IMG/VR virus record: IMGVR_UViG_2690316200_000011
Location: 1 to 6,529 of that record
Length of the DNA: 6,529 nt
Direction: 5' to 3' (one strand)
DNA from: a virus
Taxonomy: Duplodnaviria > Heunggongvirae > Uroviricota > Caudoviricetes
In this document: piece by piece, positions 1 to 6,529 of the stretch
Layout of the letters: each line of letters starts with the position of its first letter
Position numbering within the stretch: position 1 is the stretch's first letter
The notes under the pieces: model-generated
Seen by the model: the letters and a program-made list of their open reading frames with translations, nothing else
Database searches by the model: none
Told to the model about the DNA's origin: nothing
Translations under genes and position numbers: made by a program

Positions 1-47
1 AAAAAAAGAACAAATGGTAGTGTCCGCTATTGCCAGTACACCTCAGG
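1..47 (+). mobile_element. IS3-family insertion sequence, 3'-terminal segment of a second copy lying mostly upstream of the window
   Basis: Bases 1-47 are identical to 1925-1971, the segment that follows the orfB stop codon (1924-1926) of the in-window IS3-family element. Identity ends at 47/1971, where the flanks diverge (gtataag vs atagcgg). The element probably ends at the CA at 44-45 / 1968-1969. Confidence 0.6.
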
Positions 48-172
48 GTATAAGGGGTTATGGCCACCGGACTACCAAACGGCTGCCAGCCCTCTTTCAG
101 TTTATGTGTCAGCTTTTCCGCAAGATCTGACGGCGGCGCCGCCCTGACAACATCATAGTGTTTAAATGCCAT
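48..172 (-). pseudogene. Small hypothetical protein gene, C-terminus removed by the IS end; reads MAFKHYDVVRAAPPSDLAEKLTHKLKEGWQPFGSPVAITPY and then continues into IS sequence without a stop
   Basis: ATG at 170-172 on the minus strand, preceded by GGTGGAAAGAACC as a possible RBS. The translation has balanced, protein-like composition and sits in a GC-normal stretch. The open frame runs through the IS-derived bases 1-47. The EGWQPFG motif resembles small phage-associated proteins (DUF1737-like is a recollection, not verified). Confidence 0.4.
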
Positions 173-432: not shown

Positions 433-768
433 ATGAAGTGGATTGTGATTGATACAGTTATCCAGCCATCATGCGGAATATCTTTTTCAGTCATATGGAG
501 TAAAATAAAATTAATAATCTGGTATCAATCGGATGCTTTCTTACCTCCTGAAAGTATATTTACACTGACTCACACAGGCATCATGCTCAATAACAAAGTG
601 CTACCTGTAACCATTTACAACGTAGTACCATTCAATAAAACATTCTGGAATTCAATCAAAAATAGCCAGGAATGCCCTACAAATACAGATAACGTATTGA
701 ATGAATGCTTTAATAACCGTTGCACTCTGCAAATATGTCCTTATGGACTAAAACAACAAAGTCCATAA
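433..768 (+). CDS. Hypothetical protein, 111 aa, AT-rich orphan ORF
   Basis: ORF from the six-frame track. ATG at 433 is preceded by AAGGAAACTAA, a plausible Shine-Dalgarno with good spacing. The sequence is AT-rich and the protein is Cys/Trp/Asn-rich with no recognisable motif, so it may be non-coding. Confidence 0.25.
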
Positions 769-1107: not shown

Positions 1108-1926
1108 ATGTGTCAGGTATTTGGTGTATCCAGGAGCGGTTATTACAACTGGGTACAGCATGAACCCTCAGACAGAAAACAAAGTGATGAGCGGCTAAAA
1201 CTGGAGATTAAGGTGGCACATATCCGCACTCGCGAAACATATGGAACCCGGCGGCTCCAGACGGAGCTGGCAGAGAATGGCATCATCGTTGGTCGTGACC
1301 GACTGGCACGTCTTCGTAAGGAGCTAAGGCTACGCTGTAAGCAGAAACGCAAGTTCAGAGCGACTACGAACTCGAACCACAATCTGCCAGTTGCGCCAAA
1401 TCTGCTGAACCAGACGTTCGCTCCTACAGCACCAAATCAGGTCTGGGTGGCGGACCTGACGTATGTTGCCACACAGGAGGGATGGTTGTACCTCGCTGGC
1501 ATCAAAGATGTTTATACGTGCGAAATTGTCGGCTACGCCATGGGAGAGCGCATGACAAAAGAGCTGACAGGTAAAGCCCTGTTTATGGCGCTCAGGAGCC
1601 AGCGCCCACCTGCCGGGCTAATCCACCACTCTGATCGAGGTTCACAGTACTGCGCATACGATTACCGGGTCATACAGGAGCAGTCTGGTCTGAAAACATC
1701 AATGTCGCGTAAAGGTAACTGTTACGACAACGCTCCGATGGAAAGCTTCTGGGGAACGCTGAAAAATGAGAGCCTGAGCCACTATCGTTTTAATAACCGG
1801 GATGAAGCCATCTCAGTAATACGGGAATACATTGAGATTTTCTACAATCGTCAGCGTCGTCACTCTCGTCTGGGGAATATCTCCCCGGCAGCCTTCAGGG
1901 AAAAATATCATCAGATGGCTGCTTAA
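1108..1926 (+). CDS. IS3-family transposase OrfB (DDE/integrase catalytic domain); in vivo most likely made as an OrfAB transframe fusion
   Basis: 272-aa ORF. It begins MCQVFGVSRSGYYNW and carries the motifs HSDRGSQY...SMSRKGNCYDNAPMESFWGTLKNE...YNRQRRHSRLGNISP, which are characteristic of IS3-family OrfB. The frame is open upstream of the ATG back to the slippery site. Confidence 0.9.
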   Translation: MCQVFGVSRSGYYNWVQHEPSDRKQSDERLKLEIKVAHIRTRETYGTRRLQTELAENGIIVGRDRLARLRKELRLRCKQKRKFRATTNSNHNLPVAPNLLNQTFAPTAPNQVWVADLTYVATQEGWLYLAGIKDVYTCEIVGYAMGERMTKELTGKALFMALRSQRPPAGLIHHSDRGSQYCAYDYRVIQEQSGLKTSMSRKGNCYDNAPMESFWGTLKNESLSHYRFNNRDEAISVIREYIEIFYNRQRRHSRLGNISPAAFREKYHQMAA

Positions 1927-2150
1927 AAAAAGAACAAATGGTAGTGTCCGCTATTGCCAGTACACCTCAGGATAGCGGTCATGTGATGCCGGTTTCCCGG
2001 TAACTCAGCACCGGTATCTGAGTCAACGTTTTCTCTACTGGGTCATTTCCGATACGCCCTGCCTGCTGACAGGCTTTCATCACATCTGAAAATATAGCAC
2101 CCTGACTGATACTGTAGTACCTAAGGTTCCAGAAACTGTGATGTATCCGG

Positions 2151-2177
2151 CACAGAAAAGCCCCTCCGGAGAGGGCT
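2151..2177 (-). terminator. Putative rho-independent terminator (GC hairpin gcccctc-cgga-gagggc with a T-run on the minus strand)
   Basis: Bulged GC-rich hairpin at 2160-2176. The plus-strand agaaaag immediately 5' gives TTTTCT after the hairpin on the minus strand. Confidence 0.4.
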
Positions 2178-2569
2178 GGAGAGTGGCGCTATGTGCCATT
2201 GCATGATGCCGGGTGCCTCCCGGTGAATTCAGTACCAGCACCTGAATCCGCGATTATCCCATATACCTACTCGCTGATTGCCCCTCCGCACAGGGGGATT
2301 CACCATGCCAGTTTCTTTTAACAAACTCCCCGCAAACCAGACAACAGTCAACCGCCTGAATTGTGAAGTATTTAAAAATTTCTCCCGCTAACTGATACCC
2401 GGCTAACAGTCTGGCGTTTTCTTTTTCAGCAACGGGAAAGCAACAACCACCACACCCGCCACCAGCACACCGTCAGCCAGCACTGACATTATCCGGCTGC
2501 TGCAATGCCATTCACAAAAACAGTAAGCAATCACTTTTTACCGTAACAGGTGATAATCCAGATATGTAT

Positions 2570-2923
2570 CTACCCCAGATGAGTAATCCGAAGTTCATCC
2601 ATACCACAGGTCCTGGCTATTCTGTTGTACTCCTGAACAAGAGCAAATAATTCTGAATTAGCAACCATGAACTCATCGCAAACCCTCTGTATAGCATCAC
2701 TATTCAGAATAATAACGTCTCTTCCCGAAAGACGATCAGGAGTACAGAACAAAACTGTCAAACGGCTGAAGGCCTTTGCTCGTGCTGCATTGACTATATC
2801 AATACGCTGCCTAAGGATGAAACACCCCGACGCCTCATCAATATTCACTCTACCCACACCATATGAATGATAAATATTTAATGCTGAAAAAACCATTAGA
2901 CCGTATAACAAACACTCAATCAA
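2570..2923 (-). CDS. Hypothetical protein (cargo/moron candidate), 117 aa from a TTG start or 108 aa from the ATG at 2894-2896
   Basis: It is the longest ORF in a moderately AT-rich stretch, on the same strand as and directly downstream of the tRNA cluster. The translation is protein-like (…RVNIDEASGCFILRQRIDIVNAARAKAFSRL…ELFALVQEYNRIARTCGMDELRITHLG). There is no convincing RBS for either start and I recognise no family. Confidence 0.5.
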   Translation of the reverse strand: MIECLLYGLMVFSALNIYHSYGVGRVNIDEASGCFILRQRIDIVNAARAKAFSRLTVLFCTPDRLSGRDVIILNSDAIQRVCDEFMVANSELFALVQEYNRIARTCGMDELRITHLG

Positions 2924-3033
2924 TACTTAACAGAACTTTTATTTTTGACAAACATAAAATATTTTCAACAATATCCTGAGCCAGGTATATTTCAGTATAA
3001 GGCTCTGCCGGAAGGAATCTGGAAGAATGAATA

Positions 3034-3110
3034 TGGCGCGCTGTACTGGATTCGAACCAGTGACCGATTGCTTAGAAGGCAATTGCTCTGTCCGGCTGAG
3101 CTAACAACGC
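3034..3110 (-). tRNA. tRNA-Arg (anticodon UCU), phage-type argN-like
   Basis: The minus-strand RNA GCGTTGTTAGCTCAGCCGGACAGAGCAATTGCCTTCTAAGCAATCGGTCACTGGTTCGAATCCAGTACAGCGCGCCA folds as a 77-nt cloverleaf: 7-bp acceptor stem with one G-U pair, D-arm GCTC/GAGC, anticodon loop CTTCTAA, T-loop TTCGAAT, and an encoded CCA. Confidence 0.9.
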
Positions 3111-3123
3111 TGAATACCGATAA

Positions 3124-3203
3124 TGGACCGCCATCGGGGACCCGCCCCCGCACCAACAACCCTGTTATCGTGTCGTCTGCTCTTCCTGATAAGCTAATGG
3201 CGG
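3124..3203 (-). other. Degenerate tRNA-like relic (pseudo-tRNA)
   Basis: The minus-strand RNA is CCGCCAT-TA-GCTT...GAGC-...-CGGGG-GCGGGTC-CCCCG-ATGGCGG-T-CCA. The acceptor stem is perfectly complementary and a D-arm, a T-stem and a 3' CCA are present. No canonical anticodon hairpin can be formed and the T-loop is non-canonical. Confidence 0.3.
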
Positions 3204-3210
3204 TTTGTGA

Positions 3211-3286
3211 TGGTGGCCCTTGCTGGATTTGAACCAGCGACCTGGCGATTATGAGTCGCTCGCTCTCACCACTGAGCTAAAGGGCC
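3211..3286 (-). tRNA. tRNA-Ile2 (anticodon CAU, lysidine-type; ileX/ileZ-like), copy 1
   Basis: The minus-strand RNA GGCCCTTTAGCTCAGTGGTGAGAGCGAGCGACTCATAATCGCCAGGTCGCTGGTTCAAATCCAGCAAGGGCCACCA is a 76-nt cloverleaf with anticodon loop CTCATAA. It is very close to the remembered E. coli tRNA-Ile2 (ileX) sequence, which argues for Ile2 rather than Met. Confidence 0.85.
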
Positions 3287-3321
3287 GGGAGCAGAATAAT
3301 AACGGTCCGTAATTAATTCCN

Positions 3322-3346
3322 CCCATAAGCGCTAACTTAAGGGTTG
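3322..3346. repeat. IS186 left terminal inverted repeat
   Basis: 25-bp perfect inverted match with 4640-4664. Position 3321 is an ambiguous n. Confidence 0.8.
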
Positions 3347-3378
3347 TGGTATTACGCCTGATATGATTTAACGTGCCG

Positions 3379-4491
3379 ATGAATTACTCTCACGATAACT
3401 GGTCAGCAATTCTGGCCCATATTGGTAAGCCCGAAGAACTGGATACTTCGGCACGTAATGCCGGGGCTCTAACCCGCCGCCGCGAAATTCGTGATGCTGC
3501 AACTCTGCTACGTCTGGGGCTGGCTTACGGCCCCGGGGGGATGTCATTACGTGAAGTCACTGCATGGGCTCAGCTCCATGACGTTGCAACATTATCTGAC
3601 GTGGCTCTCCTGAAGCGGCTGCGGAATGCCGCCGACTGGTTTGGCATACTTGCCGCACAAACACTTGCTGTACGCGCCGCAGTTACGGGTTGTACAAGCG
3701 GAAAGAGATTGCGTCTTGTCGATGGAACAGCAATCAGTGCGCCCGGGGGCGGCAGCGCTGAATGGCGACTACATATGGGATATGATCCTCATACCTGTCA
3801 GTTCACTGATTTTGAGCTAACCGACAGCAGAGACGCTGAACGGCTGGACCGATTTGCGCAAACGGCAGACGAGATACGCATTGCTGACCGGGGATTCGGT
3901 TCGCGTCCCGAATGTATCCGCTCACTTGCTTTTGGAGAAGCTGATTATATCGTCCGGGTTCACTGGCGAGGATTGCGCTGGTTAACTGCAGAAGGAATGC
4001 GCTTTGACATGATGGGTTTTCTGCGCGGGCTGGATTGCGGTAAGAACGGTGAAACCACTGTAATGATAGGCAATTCAGGTAATAAAAAAGCCGGAGCTCC
4101 CTTTCCGGCACGTCTCATTGCCGTATCACTTCCTCCCGAAAAAGCATTAATCAGTAAAACCCGACTGCTCAGCGAGAATCGTCGAAAAGGACGAGTAGTT
4201 CAGGCGGAAACGCTGGAAGCAGCGGGCCATGTGCTATTGCTAACATCATTACCGGAAGATGAATATTCAGCAGAGCAAGTGGCTGACTGTTACCGTCTGC
4301 GATGGCAAATTGAACTGGCTTTTAAGCGGCTCAAAAGTTTGCTGCACCTGGATGCTTTGCGTGCAAAGGAACCTGAACTCGCGAAAGCGTGGATATTTGC
4401 TAATCTACTCGCCGCATTTTTAATTGACGACATAATCCAGCCATCGCTGGATTTCCCCCCCAGAAGTGCCGGATCCGAAAAGAAGAACTAA
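3379..4491 (+). CDS. insL: IS186 transposase InsL (IS4-family DDE transposase)
   Basis: The ORF track starts at GTG 3373; the ATG at 3379 gives the 370-aa product MNYSHDNW.... The C-terminal YRLRWQIELAFKRLKS is the Y-R-E signature typical of IS4-family transposases. The ORF is bounded by the inverted repeats. Confidence 0.88.
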   Translation: MNYSHDNWSAILAHIGKPEELDTSARNAGALTRRREIRDAATLLRLGLAYGPGGMSLREVTAWAQLHDVATLSDVALLKRLRNAADWFGILAAQTLAVRAAVTGCTSGKRLRLVDGTAISAPGGGSAEWRLHMGYDPHTCQFTDFELTDSRDAERLDRFAQTADEIRIADRGFGSRPECIRSLAFGEADYIVRVHWRGLRWLTAEGMRFDMMGFLRGLDCGKNGETTVMIGNSGNKKAGAPFPARLIAVSLPPEKALISKTRLLSENRRKGRVVQAETLEAAGHVLLLTSLPEDEYSAEQVADCYRLRWQIELAFKRLKSLLHLDALRAKEPELAKAWIFANLLAAFLIDDIIQPSLDFPPRSAGSEKKN

Positions 4492-4639
4492 CTCGTTGTG
4501 GAGAATAACAAAAATGGTCATCTGGAGCTTACAGGTGGCCATTCGTGGGACAGTATCCCTGACAGCCTACAAAACGCAATTGAAGAACGCGAGGCATCGT
4601 CTTAACGAGGCACCGAGGCGTCGCATTCTTCAGATGGTT

Positions 4640-4664
4640 CAACCCTTAAGTTAGCGCTTATGGG
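4640..4664. repeat. IS186 right terminal inverted repeat
   Basis: Reverse complement of 3322-3346. Confidence 0.8.
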
Positions 4665-4725
4665 ACTTGAACCCCGCGCAGCCAGCTTCGAAGGCTGGCG
4701 CTCTTTCCTGATGAGCTAATGGCGG
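4665..4725 (-). pseudogene. Truncated tRNA-Arg(UCG)-like gene: 5' part retained, 3' T-stem/acceptor strand replaced by IS186
   Basis: The minus-strand RNA is CCGCCAT-TA-GCTC-ATCAGGAAA-GAGC-G-CCAGC-CTTCGAA-GCTGG-CTGCG-CGGGG-TTCAAGT-CCC followed by the IS186 IR. The D-arm, anticodon arm (anticodon TCG) and T-stem/T-loop are canonical; the 3' acceptor strand and CCA are missing. The acceptor 5' strand starting with C is unusual, so the assignment is tentative. Confidence 0.45.
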
Positions 4726-4732
4726 TATGTGA

Positions 4733-4808
4733 TGGTGGCCCTTGCTGGATTTGAACCAGCGACCTGGCGATTATGAGTCGCTCGCTCTCACCACTGAGCT
4801 AAAGGGCC
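4733..4808 (-). tRNA. tRNA-Ile2 (anticodon CAU), copy 2, identical to copy 1
   Basis: 76 nt identical to 3211-3286. The flanks are similar but not identical (several mismatches in the 5' and 3' flanking 30-40 bp). Confidence 0.85.
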
Positions 4809-4848
4809 GGGAGCCGCATAATAACGACGCGTAATTAATTCTTCAATA

Positions 4849-5907
4849 TCATCCGTTCTGGCTGACTAAATCCTGTACTTCCCGAACCGTCTGCTCAAAA
4901 CGTTCAGTCTCCAGCTCAACGCCAATTGCACGACGCCCGAGCGCCAGTGCCGCTTTCACTGTCGAACCCAACCCCATGAAAAAATCTGCAATCAGGTCAC
5001 CCGGACGACTGCTAGCGCTGATTATCTGCTGCAGCATTTCTGCCGGTTTTTCGCACGGATGTTTCCCGGGATAGAACTGCACCGGTTTATGCGTCCACAC
5101 ATCGGTATACGGCACCTGCACCGTCACGCCAAAATACCGCCGCAGATGTTTATATTCACTCAGCAGCTCCGCATACTGCCGGTTCAGTGAGGTATACGTA
5201 TCCACCAGCTGGTGGTGGAGCTTTTCCAGTTCACCACGCCGATGCTTCTCTTCTGCCACCCGGGCAAACAGCGCCTGTAATTTCAGATAATCGCTTTCAT
5301 TCGGCAACTGCCACTGACCGGCACTGAACCAGTGCGACACCATGTTTTTCTTTCCTGTGGCATCTGCAATCTGTTTTGCCGTTATCCCCAGGGCAGCTCG
5401 CGCATCACGAAAGTAAGAAATCAGCGGGGCCATCACATGCTGTTTCAGTGCACTGCCCTTCGCCGCATACCCGGCATCTTTCGGACGATACGGCCCCTGA
5501 TAATGTTCCGCGAACAGAATGCGCTCTGTGGCGGGGAAATACGCCCGCAGGCTTTCCTTGTTGCATCCGTTCCAGCGTCCGGACGGCTTCGCCCAGATAA
5601 TATGGTTCAGCACACTGAAGCGTTCACGCATCATGATTTCGATATCAGATGCCAGGCGATGACCACAGAACAGGTAAAGACTTCCGGCAGGTTTCAGCAC
5701 CCGCCAGAACTGCGCCAGACACTGGTCCAGCCACTTCAGGTAATCATCGTCGCCCTTCCACTGGTTATCCCAGCCCTCAGGCTTCACTTTAAAGTACGGC
5801 GGGTCCGTGACTATCAGGTCAACAGAATTTTCGGGTAACGACCGGATAAATTCCAGGCAGTCGGCGTTGATTAACTCACAACTGGATATTTTTACAGTAT
5901 TAAGCAT
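4849..5907 (-). CDS. DNA N6-adenine methyltransferase, beta-class (YhdJ-like / N6_N4_Mtase family), orphan
   Basis: 352-aa ORF with motif IV near the N-terminus (SVDLIVTDPPY) and motif I near the C-terminus (GDLIADFFMGLGST), preceded by HPCEKP. This order defines beta-class amino-MTases and the layout parallels E. coli YhdJ as I remember it. No restriction endonuclease gene is adjacent. Confidence 0.9.
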   Translation of the reverse strand: MLNTVKISSCELINADCLEFIRSLPENSVDLIVTDPPYFKVKPEGWDNQWKGDDDYLKWLDQCLAQFWRVLKPAGSLYLFCGHRLASDIEIMMRERFSVLNHIIWAKPSGRWNGCNKESLRAYFPATERILFAEHYQGPYRPKDAGYAAKGSALKQHVMAPLISYFRDARAALGITAKQIADATGKKNMVSHWFSAGQWQLPNESDYLKLQALFARVAEEKHRRGELEKLHHQLVDTYTSLNRQYAELLSEYKHLRRYFGVTVQVPYTDVWTHKPVQFYPGKHPCEKPAEMLQQIISASSRPGDLIADFFMGLGSTVKAALALGRRAIGVELETERFEQTVREVQDLVSQNG

Positions 5908-6044: not shown

Positions 6045-6071
6045 AATAAAAAAGCCTTCACTGCGGAAGGC
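6045..6071 (-). terminator. Rho-independent terminator (stem gccttc/gaaggc, loop actgcg, then TTTTTTATT on the minus strand)
   Basis: The minus strand reads GCCTTCCGCAGTGAAGGC followed by TTTTTTATTTG. The hairpin overlaps the stop codon of ORF 6058-6255. Confidence 0.6.
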
Positions 6072-6255
6072 GTCTGTAACAACCGAACTGATAGTCTGCC
6101 AGACCCGCCATAACCAGCTGGGTCAGTATTAACTGGCAGCGTTCGCGTGAAAGGTAAGTATTCTGCGCTATCTCCCCGACTGTCGCCGGTTCGGTAACGC
6201 TTAATTCATTAAACACCACTCTGGCGGTTTCTGTCATATCCTGCTGTTTTAGCAT
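6058..6255 (-). CDS. Small hypothetical protein, 65 aa, possible winged-helix DNA-binding protein (PapI/FaeA-like pattern)
   Basis: The ATG is preceded by AAGGAAAAGAC, a strong Shine-Dalgarno. The translation MLKQQDMTETARVVFNELSVTEPATVGEIAQNTYLSRERCQLILTQLVMAGLADYQ resembles small winged-helix regulators by pattern only. The gene is bracketed by terminators at 6376-6398 and 6045-6071. Confidence 0.45.
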   Translation of the reverse strand: MLKQQDMTETARVVFNELSVTEPATVGEIAQNTYLSRERCQLILTQLVMAGLADYQFGCYRRLPQ

Positions 6256-6375
6256 GTCTTTTCCTTTTCCGGTTAACGTGACACACCAATAACTCTTGTC
6301 GAAAAAGCCAGCAAGCTGAAAGACAGGTATTCACCGCCACCAGCGCGTTTACTGTACTGACGCGATTTCAGTCAT

Positions 6376-6398
6376 AAAAAACCCGCTCGGCGGCGGGT
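6376..6398 (-). terminator. Rho-independent terminator (stem cccgc/gcggg with a T6 run on the minus strand)
   Basis: The minus strand reads AACCCGCCGCCGAGCGGGTTTTTTATGA. It lies roughly 85-100 bp downstream of a minus-strand reading frame that enters from beyond the window end (stop near 6482 or 6497, depending on frame). Confidence 0.6.
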
Positions 6399-6529
6399 TG
6401 TAGAAACTCTTCTAACGTCAGGCATAAAACGCCCATCGTTATGACGAATTTACCACAGATTCCGGAAAAATCAACCTTGTTACCTAGTTACCTTTTTTAA
6501 CTGCCGCTCAGCCCATGCTTCTTCAATAT

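What the first reader, a model, noticed from the sequence alone, without database searches (positions are those of the whole stretch)
2570..3033. Unrecognised AT-rich cargo ORF at the position where Stx phages carry stxAB
On the minus strand the gene order is DNA methyltransferase, then tRNA-Ile2, then tRNA-Arg genes, then this ORF. That matches the known arrangement in Stx-converting lambdoid phages, where ileZ-argN-argO sit immediately upstream of stxA-stxB. Here the toxin slot holds a single 108-117-aa ORF. It is not stxA or stxB (wrong size and sequence), its GC content looks lower than its surroundings by eye, it has no clear RBS, and I recognise no family. Morons at this locus are often virulence or fitness factors, so this is the strongest candidate for something undescribed. 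Whether the linked rare-codon tRNAs matter depends on a count of AUA/AGA/AGG/CGA codons in the ORF, which I have not done.
Basis: partly seen in the sequence, partly recalled or inferred. Interest (0 to 1): 0.7.

Follow-up and report, generated by a model that had tools for sequence, protein, structure and literature searches.

The report
Small unknown gene in Shiga-toxin slot
The flagged ORF is a real, conserved 92-codon prophage gene of unknown function that sits exactly where related phages carry the Shiga toxin genes, but it belongs to an already catalogued family and nothing suggests it is a toxin.

Summary
It runs from GTG 2848 to TAG 2570 on the minus strand (92 aa). The 108/117-aa extensions are not conserved.

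Coding evidence:
- It has equal-length homologues at 20-63% identity in Escherichia, Citrobacter, Salmonella, Serratia, Morganella and Xenorhabdus.
- dN/dS is about 0.26.
- None of 71 near-identical copies carries a stop or an indel.

An alignment with an Stx2a phage shows that window 3025-2367 (this gene plus a DUF3927 gene) replaces stx2AB exactly. The swap lies between the tRNA-Arg(UCU) gene argO and the STnc100 sRNA.

The protein matches phrog_2873 and phrog_4827, both of unknown function. It has no Pfam, NCBIfam, PADLOC or PDB relative. AlphaFold gives a two-helix hairpin (pLDDT 87) with no signal peptide. Relatives lie almost always between antiterminator Q and the holin, often close to tRNA genes.

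The locus is in 1,183 of 5,426 complete E. coli genomes, and PGAP left it unannotated in every genome sampled.

Best reading: a cytoplasmic late-operon accessory protein that acts by binding a partner. Its function is untested. It is a new member of a known kind, of moderate interest.

The parts
2570..2848 (-). Conserved CDS: GTG start, TAG stop, 92 aa. A two-helix hairpin protein of family phrog_2873/phrog_4827.
   Evidence: Same-length open frame in L005 and L006, with start and stop at the same positions. dN/dS 0.26-0.27. Across 71 copies there are 6 synonymous and 5 non-synonymous changes and no indel or stop. PHROG match E 5.6e-58. The N-terminal NIDE aligns with the family's M-x-x-INFEA N-terminus. 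AlphaFold pLDDT 82 and 87.
2849..2923 (-). In-frame 5' extension that produces the 108-aa (ATG 2896) and 117-aa (TTG 2923) readings. It is not conserved as coding and is probably 5' leader.
   Evidence: Stop codon in L005 and a different frame in L006. 6 polymorphic sites in 75 nt, including a 1-bp deletion at 2892, against 10 sites in the 279-nt CDS. No Shine-Dalgarno sequence before ATG 2896 or TTG 2923.
2924..3033 (-). AT-rich spacer between tRNA-Arg and the ORF, with a sigma-70-like site (TTGAAA, 16 nt, AAAAAT at 2968-2941).
   Evidence: Consensus scan, 9 of 12 matches. GC 0.36. 10 polymorphic sites in 110 nt. Promoter function is not shown.
3034..3110 (-). tRNA-Arg(TCT), the argO equivalent. 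It marks the left edge of the cargo slot.
   Evidence: ARAGORN and Rfam. Homology with the Stx2a phage ends 8 nt past this tRNA.
3211..3286 (-). tRNA(CAT), annotated tRNA-Ile (ileZ type) in relatives. The spacer 3111-3210 aligns with argN of Stx phages but is no longer a detectable tRNA.
2403..2534 (-). DUF3927 / TciB-like 43-aa small hydrophobic protein. It is the second gene of the cargo segment, 35 nt downstream of the ORF.
   Evidence: Pfam PF13064 E 1.7e-27. phrog_1470. PGAP annotates it in relatives as WP_000562553.1.
2148..2337 (-). STnc100 sRNA with an intrinsic terminator at 2177-2159. It marks the right edge of the cargo slot.
   Evidence: Rfam RF02076, 122.5 bits against a gathering score of 47. 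Terminator scan. The same element follows stx2B in L100 (4354-4568) and follows the cargo in L016.
3322..4664 (+). IS421/IS186-like insertion sequence (transposase 3373-4491) lying between the late promoter region and the cargo. It interrupts a tRNA-Arg(TCG).
   Evidence: Perfect 25-nt inverted repeats. IS4-family transposase. PGAP name in relatives. Truncated tRNA at 4659-4719.
4733..5907 (-). Upstream late-region genes: N6/N4 DNA methyltransferase 4849-5907 and a first tRNA(CAT) copy 4733-4808.
   Evidence: Pfam PF01555 E 7.9e-42. tRNA. 94.4% identity to the Stx2a phage over window 6399->4662.

Best explanation
**Shown**
- Window 2570-2848 (minus strand) is a real protein-coding gene under purifying selection.
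- It encodes a 92-aa, mildly acidic (pI 5.7) protein. It has no signal peptide or membrane segment by inspection, and it is predicted to fold as an antiparallel two-helix hairpin.
- It belongs to a small Enterobacterales phage family (phrog_2873/phrog_4827) of unknown function.
- Together with the DUF3927 gene it fills the known moron insertion site downstream of Q and PR'. It occupies exactly the segment that stx2AB occupies in Stx2a phages, between argO and the STnc100 sRNA.

**Inferred**
- It lies in late-gene orientation with no terminator before STnc100. It is therefore probably transcribed by Q-antiterminated read-through from PR' on induction, and perhaps also from a weak promoter in the AT-rich spacer.
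- The likely transcript is ORF92, DUF3927, STnc100.
- Eight of its 92 codons (AUA, AGA, AGG) are read by the two tRNAs just upstream.
- It has no catalytic motif and a plain helical-hairpin fold with a few invariant polar residues (R23, N75; nearly invariant N64, A78).
- It most likely acts stoichiometrically in the cytoplasm during the late (lytic) phase, by binding a host or phage partner as a small regulator or inhibitor. It is unlikely to be an enzyme or an exported toxin.
- In this genome the IS421 copy between PR' and the gene may weaken late expression.
For: **Coding**
- The frame is intact, with equal length and the same start and stop, at 59-63% identity in L005 and L006.
- dN/dS is 0.26-0.27 in all three pairs, with differences concentrated at third codon positions.
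- Homologues at 20-43% identity and 89-110 aa have ATG starts; Shine-Dalgarno sequences at the equivalent start were checked in four of them.
- In 71 near-identical copies there are 6 synonymous and 5 non-synonymous changes over about 62 and 214 sites, with no stop or indel. Flanks vary 2-2.5 times more.
- Antisense frames are closed in the distant homologues.

**Slot**
- Alignment edges against Stx2_95, and STnc100 to the right of the cargo in both.
- The moron site at PR', with sRNAs 3' of the moron CDS, is described by Tree et al. 2014 (PMC4104026).

**Synteny**
Family members lie between Q and the holin or lysis genes in E. coli, Citrobacter (44), Salmonella (92), Serratia (86), Morganella (87), Xenorhabdus (94) and two further lineages (49, 93).

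**Fold**
- Helices at 3-33/35 and 50-81, pLDDT 82 and 87.4.
- Only generic coiled-coil hairpins match it.

**No enzyme or toxin family**

**Codons**
Against: - There are no expression, translation or phenotype data of any kind. The mode of action is inference from fold and position.
- This copy has a GTG start with only a weak G-rich Shine-Dalgarno sequence (GUGGGU).
- PGAP does not call the gene in any sampled genome with the 99% copy.
- Only one of 50,697 sequenced phage records carries the family.
- Some weak family members lie in tail modules or on a plasmid-like contig, so the late-operon slot is not universal.
- A helical hairpin can also bind nucleic acid or membranes.
Confidence: 0.55

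Rival explanations
1. The protein is one half of a cassette with the DUF3927 small membrane protein, and with a TerB-like 141-aa protein where present. The pair would act at the membrane, for example in superinfection exclusion, colicin or phage resistance, or modulation of lysis timing.
For: DUF3927 starts 35 nt after the ORF with no terminator between them. In Citrobacter L007 and in L019 the order is ORF, TerB-like, DUF3927, then holins. PHROG labels the DUF3927 family as TciB-like, 'inhibition of cell division or resistance to colicin'.
Against: Most lineages have the ORF without DUF3927 nearby: L005, L006 and L015 by tblastn, and Serratia, Morganella, Salmonella and Xenorhabdus by their gene tables. 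Phages of the vB_EcoS-813R8 type keep DUF3927 but lack the ORF. The link is frequent but not obligatory, as expected for shuffled morons.
Confidence: 0.15
2. The family has a tRNA-related role. It might bind, protect or regulate the phage-borne tRNAs or their use, for example against anticodon nucleases.
For: 7 of 14 sampled lineages have a same-strand tRNA gene within 700 nt, with differing identities: Ile2/Arg, Thr, Thr+Gly, Met+Gly, Asn, and Phe just downstream. One is a plasmid-like contig with tRNA-Thr 580 nt upstream. The tRNA-binding arm of seryl-tRNA synthetase is among the generic hairpin matches.
Against: The Q-downstream slot is where lambdoid phages keep tRNAs anyway, so co-location may be positional. 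Five lineages have no tRNA nearby, and in two more the nearest tRNA is about 2.2 kb upstream. The tRNA blocks and the ORF are separate homology pieces with variable spacers. Four of the five other members checked are acidic (pI 4.75-5.7), which is poor for RNA binding. No RNA-binding family matches.
Confidence: 0.08
3. In this genome, and perhaps in the whole near-identical E. coli/Shigella lineage, the ORF is silent. It would be a decaying passenger of a defective prophage, preserved only by recent common descent.
For: GTG start with a poor Shine-Dalgarno sequence. PGAP does not call it. The prophage here is broken by IS421 and IS600-like elements, and IS421 lies between PR' and the gene. Copies are 95-100% identical, so there has been little time for decay.
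Against: pN/pS is about 0.24 within the near-identical set, and none of 71 copies is disrupted while the flanks carry an indel. Long-range dN/dS is 0.26, and the gene length is kept down to 20% identity.
Confidence: 0.1
4. It is an exported toxin or virulence factor, functionally analogous to Stx.
For: It sits in the same slot as stx2AB. Morons at this site include virulence genes (PMC4104026).
Against: It has no signal peptide or membrane segment, and it is a soluble helical hairpin. It has no toxin, RIP or AB5 family match. It is found in 22% of complete E. coli genomes, including environmental and commensal isolates.
Confidence: 0.03
5. The real feature is the plus-strand ORF 2667-2870, or a non-coding RNA, and not the minus-strand ORF.
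For: The plus-strand frame shares wobble positions with the sense frame, so it also gives dN/dS of about 0.27. It is open in L005.
Against: That frame has an internal stop and loses its ATG in L006. It has 4-7 stops in four distant homologues. Rfam finds nothing in 2570-3033.
Confidence: 0.01

Closest known systems
stx2AB cassette of Stx2a-converting lambdoid phages (e.g. Stx2_95, LC567838.1)
   Same: It occupies the same insertion slot with the same flanks. On the left are Q, a small ORF, the DNA methylase, ileZ, argN and argO. On the right is the STnc100 sRNA. It has the same orientation as the late operon.
   Different: There is no sequence or fold relation. Here the cargo is about 660 bp and encodes a 92-aa cytoplasmic helical hairpin plus a 43-aa DUF3927 protein, not a secreted AB5 toxin of 1.37 kb.
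PHROG families phrog_2873 and phrog_4827 (unknown function)
   Same: It matches phrog_2873 over its full length (E 3.8e-70 for the long ORF, 5.6e-58 for the 92 aa). All 24 aligned relatives hit phrog_2873, and 21 also hit phrog_4827.
   Different: The phrog_2873 profile is 108 positions long because it includes the non-conserved ATG extension. The conserved protein starts at profile position 17.
Morons at the PR' site of lambdoid prophages (Juhala et al. 2000, as cited in Tree et al. 2014, PMC4104026)
   Same: It is extra DNA between PR' and the lysis genes. It is present or absent among otherwise homologous phages, has atypical base composition, and is followed by sRNA genes.
   Different: An own promoter and terminator, typical of classical morons, are only suggested here. 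This family recurs in the slot across six genera, which is more than a one-off insert would.
Small prophage-encoded protein-binding regulators such as the neighbouring anti-adaptor IraM
   Same: It is a small, non-enzymatic cytoplasmic protein carried in the same prophage late region (IraM at 433-768). This is the kind of mechanism proposed here.
   Different: It has no sequence relation to IraM, IraP or IraD models. The resemblance is a working analogy only.

Membership tests
phrog_2873 / phrog_4827 | Significant full-length match to the family profile | tested here: met
   phrog_2873 E 3.8e-70 (residues 10-117 of the long ORF) and 5.6e-58 (92 aa). phrog_4827 E 2.2e-5, and 1.1e-19 for relatives.
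phrog_2873 / phrog_4827 | Shared size (about 90-110 aa) and conserved motifs (N-terminal INFEA/NIDE, R23, ANxEL, EYN) | tested here: met
   Alignment of 24 members: R23 and N75 are invariant, and M1, L12 and A78 are nearly invariant.
Moron at the lambdoid PR' insertion site | Lies between Q/PR' and the lysis genes, in late-gene orientation | tested here: met
   IS-free relative L016 has Q, small ORF, methylase, tRNAs, ORF, DUF3927, then the holin. The same holds in five other genera.
Moron at the lambdoid PR' insertion site | Present or absent among otherwise homologous phages, with sharp boundaries | tested here: met
   Window 3025-2367 against stx2AB at L100 2957-4324, between shared flanks.
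Moron at the lambdoid PR' insertion site | Own promoter and terminator | tested here: inconclusive
   A 9-of-12 sigma-70-like site at 2968-2941, and the STnc100 terminator at 2177-2159. These are consensus matches only.
Moron at the lambdoid PR' insertion site | Base composition unlike the neighbouring phage genes | tested here: met
   GC is 0.44 for the CDS and 0.36 for its upstream region, against 0.50-0.54 for the methylase, Q, holin and lysozyme.
Shiga toxin (StxA RIP N-glycosidase / StxB pentamer) | RIP domain or B-subunit fold, and signal peptides | tested here: not met
   No Pfam or NCBIfam hit. The model is a two-helix hairpin.
Genes dependent on phage tRNA-Ile2 / tRNA-Arg(UCU) | Enrichment of AUA, AGA and AGG codons | tested here: met
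   AUA is 3 of 9 Ile codons, and AGA+AGG are 5 of 10 Arg codons. That is 8.7 per 100 codons, against 1.1-6.2 for neighbouring genes.
Genes dependent on phage tRNA-Ile2 / tRNA-Arg(UCU) | Expression actually limited by those tRNAs | not testable with these tools
   This needs reporter or recoding experiments. Homologues without nearby tRNAs are also rich in these codons (L005: 5.4 per 100).
Anti-adaptors IraM / IraP / IraD | Match to the curated family models | tested here: not met
   NCBIfam gives 0 families for the ORF, while the neighbouring gene 433-768 matches IraM at 4.7e-48.
Known anti-phage defence proteins (PADLOC) | Match to a PADLOC model | tested here: not met
   0 families for the window protein, and one chance-level hit among 11 relatives.

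The most novel reading that the evidence does not exclude
The family is a dedicated late-phase factor kept just after PR' and the phage tRNAs across Enterobacterales. It would be a new kind of small host-takeover, anti-defence or tRNA-linked protein that alternates with stx as the payload of the same slot. It has been overlooked because standard annotation skips it in more than a thousand complete E. coli genomes.
Probability: 0.15. Interest if true: 0.6.

Novelty: new member of a known kind. Interest (0 to 1): 0.35.

Why it matters
**What the result clarifies**
- It defines the cargo slot of Stx-type prophages to the base: from argO to STnc100.
- It shows that a non-toxin payload, a 92-aa protein plus DUF3927, is the common occupant in E. 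coli, present in 22% of complete genomes.

**What it fixes**
- It corrects the gene model to 92 aa with a GTG start.
- It flags a systematic annotation gap.
- It ties two PHROG families into one family that recurs between Q and the holin in at least six genera.

**What would raise the interest**
A defined late-phase role, such as lysis control, anti-defence or tRNA use, would explain why this slot is so often filled. It could also affect how Stx-type prophages behave on induction. As things stand, it is an uncharacterised accessory gene of a familiar kind.

Tried and rejected
**Family and structure searches that found nothing useful**
- Pfam and NCBIfam gave nothing for the ORF or for 11 relatives; only single chance-level hits appeared.
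- PADLOC gave nothing.
- PDB sequence profiles gave a best E of 0.04-0.1. The weak GapR/UPF0335 and Rop matches are at chance level.
- Foldseek against PDB and BFVD gave no hit below E 0.1.
- The afdb50 library was not available.

**Other dead ends**
- Literature searches for WP_001017777, phrog_2873, DUF3927, and ileZ/argN/argO with prophage found nothing on this gene.
- The K-12 iraM region holds no copy.
- The search for related loci with the diverse alignment failed for lack of a conserved stretch.

**Ideas considered and dropped**
- The idea that tRNA-Arg and the ORF form one indel cassette was dropped. The vB_EcoS-813R8-type deletion runs from inside tRNA-Arg to inside DUF3927.
- dN/dS alone could not separate the sense frame from the wobble-sharing antisense frame. 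Stop codons in the relatives settled it.

Full report
**1. What is in the window**

Read on the minus strand, the window is a piece of a lambdoid prophage late region. In order it holds:
- the PR' region and a small phrog_331 ORF (6058-6255);
- an N6/N4 DNA methyltransferase (4849-5907);
- tRNA(CAT) (4733-4808);
- a truncated tRNA-Arg(TCG) (about 4665-4719);
- an IS421/IS186-like element (3322-4664, perfect 25-nt inverted repeats, transposase 3373-4491 on the plus strand);
- a second tRNA(CAT) (3211-3286);
- tRNA-Arg(TCT) (3034-3110);
- the flagged ORF (2570-2923);
- a DUF3927/TciB-like gene (2403-2534);
- the sRNA STnc100 (2148-2337);
- an IS3-family element (orfB 1108-1926);
- the anti-adaptor gene iraM on the other strand (433-768).

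IS-free E. coli relatives show the plain order: Q, small ORF, methylase, tRNA-Ile, tRNA-Arg, about 500 unannotated bases, DUF3927, STnc100, iraM, holin.

**2. Is the ORF a gene, and which ORF?**

Length alone proves nothing, because one search also lists antisense shadow ORFs of 102 and 168 aa.

The locus is present at 95-100% identity in 1,183 of 5,426 complete E. coli genomes. PGAP annotates nothing over it in any sampled row.

Diverged copies exist at 72-76% DNA identity and 59-63% protein identity. One is annotated as a 92-aa hypothetical protein (L005, WP_001017777.1). The other is unannotated (L006). In both, the reading frame is open for exactly 92 codons, from a GTG that corresponds to window 2848 to a stop that corresponds to 2570. 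Upstream of that GTG, L005 has a stop codon and L006 is in another frame.

dN/dS is 0.26-0.27 for all three pairs, with twice as many differences at third positions. It gives the same ratio, as expected. However, it has an internal stop and no ATG in L006, and 4-7 stops in the four distant homologues checked.

Among 71 near-identical copies from IMG/VR and other loci:
- the 279-nt core has 10 variable sites (6 synonymous and 5 non-synonymous changes, pN/pS about 0.24) and no indel or stop;
- the 75-nt extension has 6 variable sites, including a 1-bp deletion;
- the spacer and DUF3927 vary at about 9% of sites.

Distant family members (20-43% identity, 89-110 aa) start with ATG, and four of them were checked and carry a good Shine-Dalgarno sequence. 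Their conserved M-x-x-I-N-F-E-A N-terminus aligns with M-N-I-D-E-A of the 92-aa version.

Conclusion: the gene is 2570-2848, 92 aa. The 108/117-aa readings are artefacts of an open leader. The PHROG profile, 108 positions long, includes that leader too.

**3. The Stx slot**

I aligned the window with Stx2a phage Stx2_95.
- Window 6399->4662 matches L100 1103-2845 (94%). This covers the PR' region, the methylase, ileZ and argN, up to the IS.
- Window 3317->3026 matches L100 2666-2956 (89%). This covers ileZ to 8 nt past argO.
- Homology then stops. It resumes at window 2366->2280, matching L100 4325-4411, just after stx2B (which ends at 4279).
- That resumption is the STnc100 element in both sequences.

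Window 3025-2367, the 92-aa gene plus DUF3927, is therefore an exact positional alternative to stx2AB (L100 2957-4324). The IS-free relative L016 gives the same picture.

This matches published knowledge. The sequence downstream of the Q-antiterminated PR' tolerates moron insertions. Stx2 is one such moron, and sRNAs lie 3' of the moron CDS (Tree et al. 2014, PMC4104026). STnc100 is a known prophage sRNA related to PasD (bioRxiv 10.64898/2026.05.13.724894).

No Stx phage in the 50,697-record phage set carries the gene. Only Escherichia phage mEp460_ev081 does.

**4. What the protein is**

It has no Pfam, NCBIfam or PADLOC family. It matches phrog_2873 strongly and phrog_4827 weakly, both of unknown function. 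All 24 aligned relatives hit the first and 21 hit the second, so the two are one family.

An exhaustive HMMER search of 1.84 billion representatives found only 22 clusters. A profile search of the larger set found 45 proteins. All are 'hypothetical', none carries a Pfam domain, and they come from Escherichia/Shigella, Citrobacter, Enterobacter, Salmonella, Serratia, Morganella, Providencia and Xenorhabdus.

AlphaFold gives the same model from 5 and from 24 sequences:
- helix 3-33/35;
- a loop with a short bridge;
- helix 50-81;
- a short tail (pLDDT 82 and 87.4, pTM 0.68 and 0.73).

**5. Context of relatives**

Family members lie between the Q antiterminator and the holin or lysis genes in:
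- Citrobacter (ORF, TerB-like, DUF3927, holins);
- a P0024 lineage;
- Salmonella;
- Serratia;
- Morganella (Q, small ORF, methylase, ORF, holin, the same layout as here);
- Xenorhabdus (beside a Tad2-like gene);
- a lineage with HicAB beside it.

Weak members lie in tail modules. One lineage lies on plasmid-like contigs next to a fimbrial operon.

Seven of 14 lineages have a same-strand tRNA gene within 700 nt, of varying identity. However, tRNA blocks and ORF blocks are separate homology pieces, and this slot is where such phages keep their tRNAs anyway.

DUF3927 is adjacent in three lineages and absent in most others. DUF3927 also occurs without the ORF.

**6. Rare codons**

The 92 codons include 3 AUA (of 9 Ile) and 2 AGA plus 3 AGG (of 10 Arg). 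That is 8.7 per 100 codons, the highest among the neighbouring genes (1.1-6.2). Homologues range from 1.1 to 6.4, including 5.4 in L005, which has no tRNA nearby. The two upstream tRNAs would decode these codons, but the pattern is explained by AT-richness as well as by co-adaptation.

**7. Most likely mechanism**

Shown: this is a conserved coding gene in the stx slot, and its product is a helical hairpin with no known family.

Inferred:
- It is transcribed with the late operon by Q-dependent read-through, possibly also from a weak sigma-70-like site at 2968-2941.
- There is no terminator before the STnc100 terminator at 2177-2159.
- The product acts in the cytoplasm in the late phase by binding a partner.
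- In this genome IS421 lies between PR' and the gene, and the prophage is broken by IS elements, so expression here may be impaired.

The rivals are listed with their tests: a cassette with DUF3927, a tRNA-linked role, a silent remnant, an exported toxin, and an antisense or RNA feature.

**8. Verdict**

This is a real, uncharacterised cargo gene at the stx position, but several points lower its novelty:
- it is already catalogued as a family of unknown function;
- it is widespread in all kinds of E. coli;
- it is shorter than proposed;
- it shows no sign of being a toxin.

It is a new member of a known kind (a PR' moron), of moderate interest.

Noticed in passing
window 2148-2337 (-); L100 4354-4568; L016 6169-6358; L006 3667-3879, 5639-5834, 5898-6107, 6169-6367, 6429-6618: The sRNA STnc100 (RF02076) lies directly to the right of the cargo in the window, in IS-free relatives, and after stx2B in an Stx2a phage. 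One stx-less relative (L006) has five copies, four of them in tandem just after the ORF homologue. The element looks like the recombination junction of the slot. A weak second hit lies at window 1921-2109.
   Followed up: partly
window 3322-4664, 4665-4719, 3183-3319 and 4705-4841: An IS421/IS186-like element with perfect 25-nt inverted repeats cuts a tRNA-Arg(TCG). A 137-nt direct repeat (95%) on either side carries two tRNA-Ile2 copies. Two late-region left ends therefore appear to be joined at the IS: one Stx-phage-like with ileZ-argN, the other of the L016 type.
   Followed up: partly
window 3111-3210 (-): The 100-nt spacer between tRNA-Ile and tRNA-Arg(TCT) aligns with argN of Stx phages, but ARAGORN and Rfam no longer detect a tRNA there. 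It is a decayed tRNA gene.
   Followed up: partly
window 1-50, 433-768, 820-831, 1108-1974, 3321: IS3-family element ends at 1-50 and 1925-1974 (98% identical) bracket iraM (433-768, plus strand). A 12-base N run lies at 820-831, beside a terminator-like copy at 801-819 (89% alike to 2156-2174). A single N at 3321 abuts the IS421 repeat. The IS load suggests a Shigella-like genome.
   Followed up: no
E. coli complete genomes: PGAP annotates nothing over the 99%-identical gene in every sampled genome, and 1,183 genomes hold the locus. Yet it annotates the 63%-identical L005 type as a 92-aa hypothetical protein. This is a systematic annotation gap, probably due to the GTG start and the weak Shine-Dalgarno sequence.
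   Followed up: partly
L112 3373-4158; L110/L111 3527-4181; L109 3154-3705: In other genera the same Q-to-holin slot also carries a Tad2-like gene (Xenorhabdus), a HicAB toxin-antitoxin pair, and an ORF6N-domain gene (Salmonella) next to the family member. This fits a hot spot for accessory and counter-defence genes.
   Followed up: no
L105-L107 and L014: A 91-aa family member lies on plasmid-like contigs (Rep3 replicase, integrase, K88-like fimbrial operon with PapB), with a tRNA-Thr(TGT) about 580 nt upstream. A tRNA gene in such a setting is unusual and suggests a captured piece of a phage late region.
   Followed up: partly
L019 (JAEWMQ010000075.1): A 2.7-kb contig binned as a Bacillota MAG carries an L005-type copy (62% identity to the window protein) followed by TerB-like and DUF3927 genes. 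It is most likely an enterobacterial contig that was mis-binned.
   Followed up: no
window 6256-6529 (-): The stretch upstream of the phrog_331 ORF aligns with the region of the Stx2a phage that follows Q. It carries a weak Trp-leader-like Rfam hit (6373-6479, E 0.68), possibly the short terminated PR' transcript.
   Followed up: no
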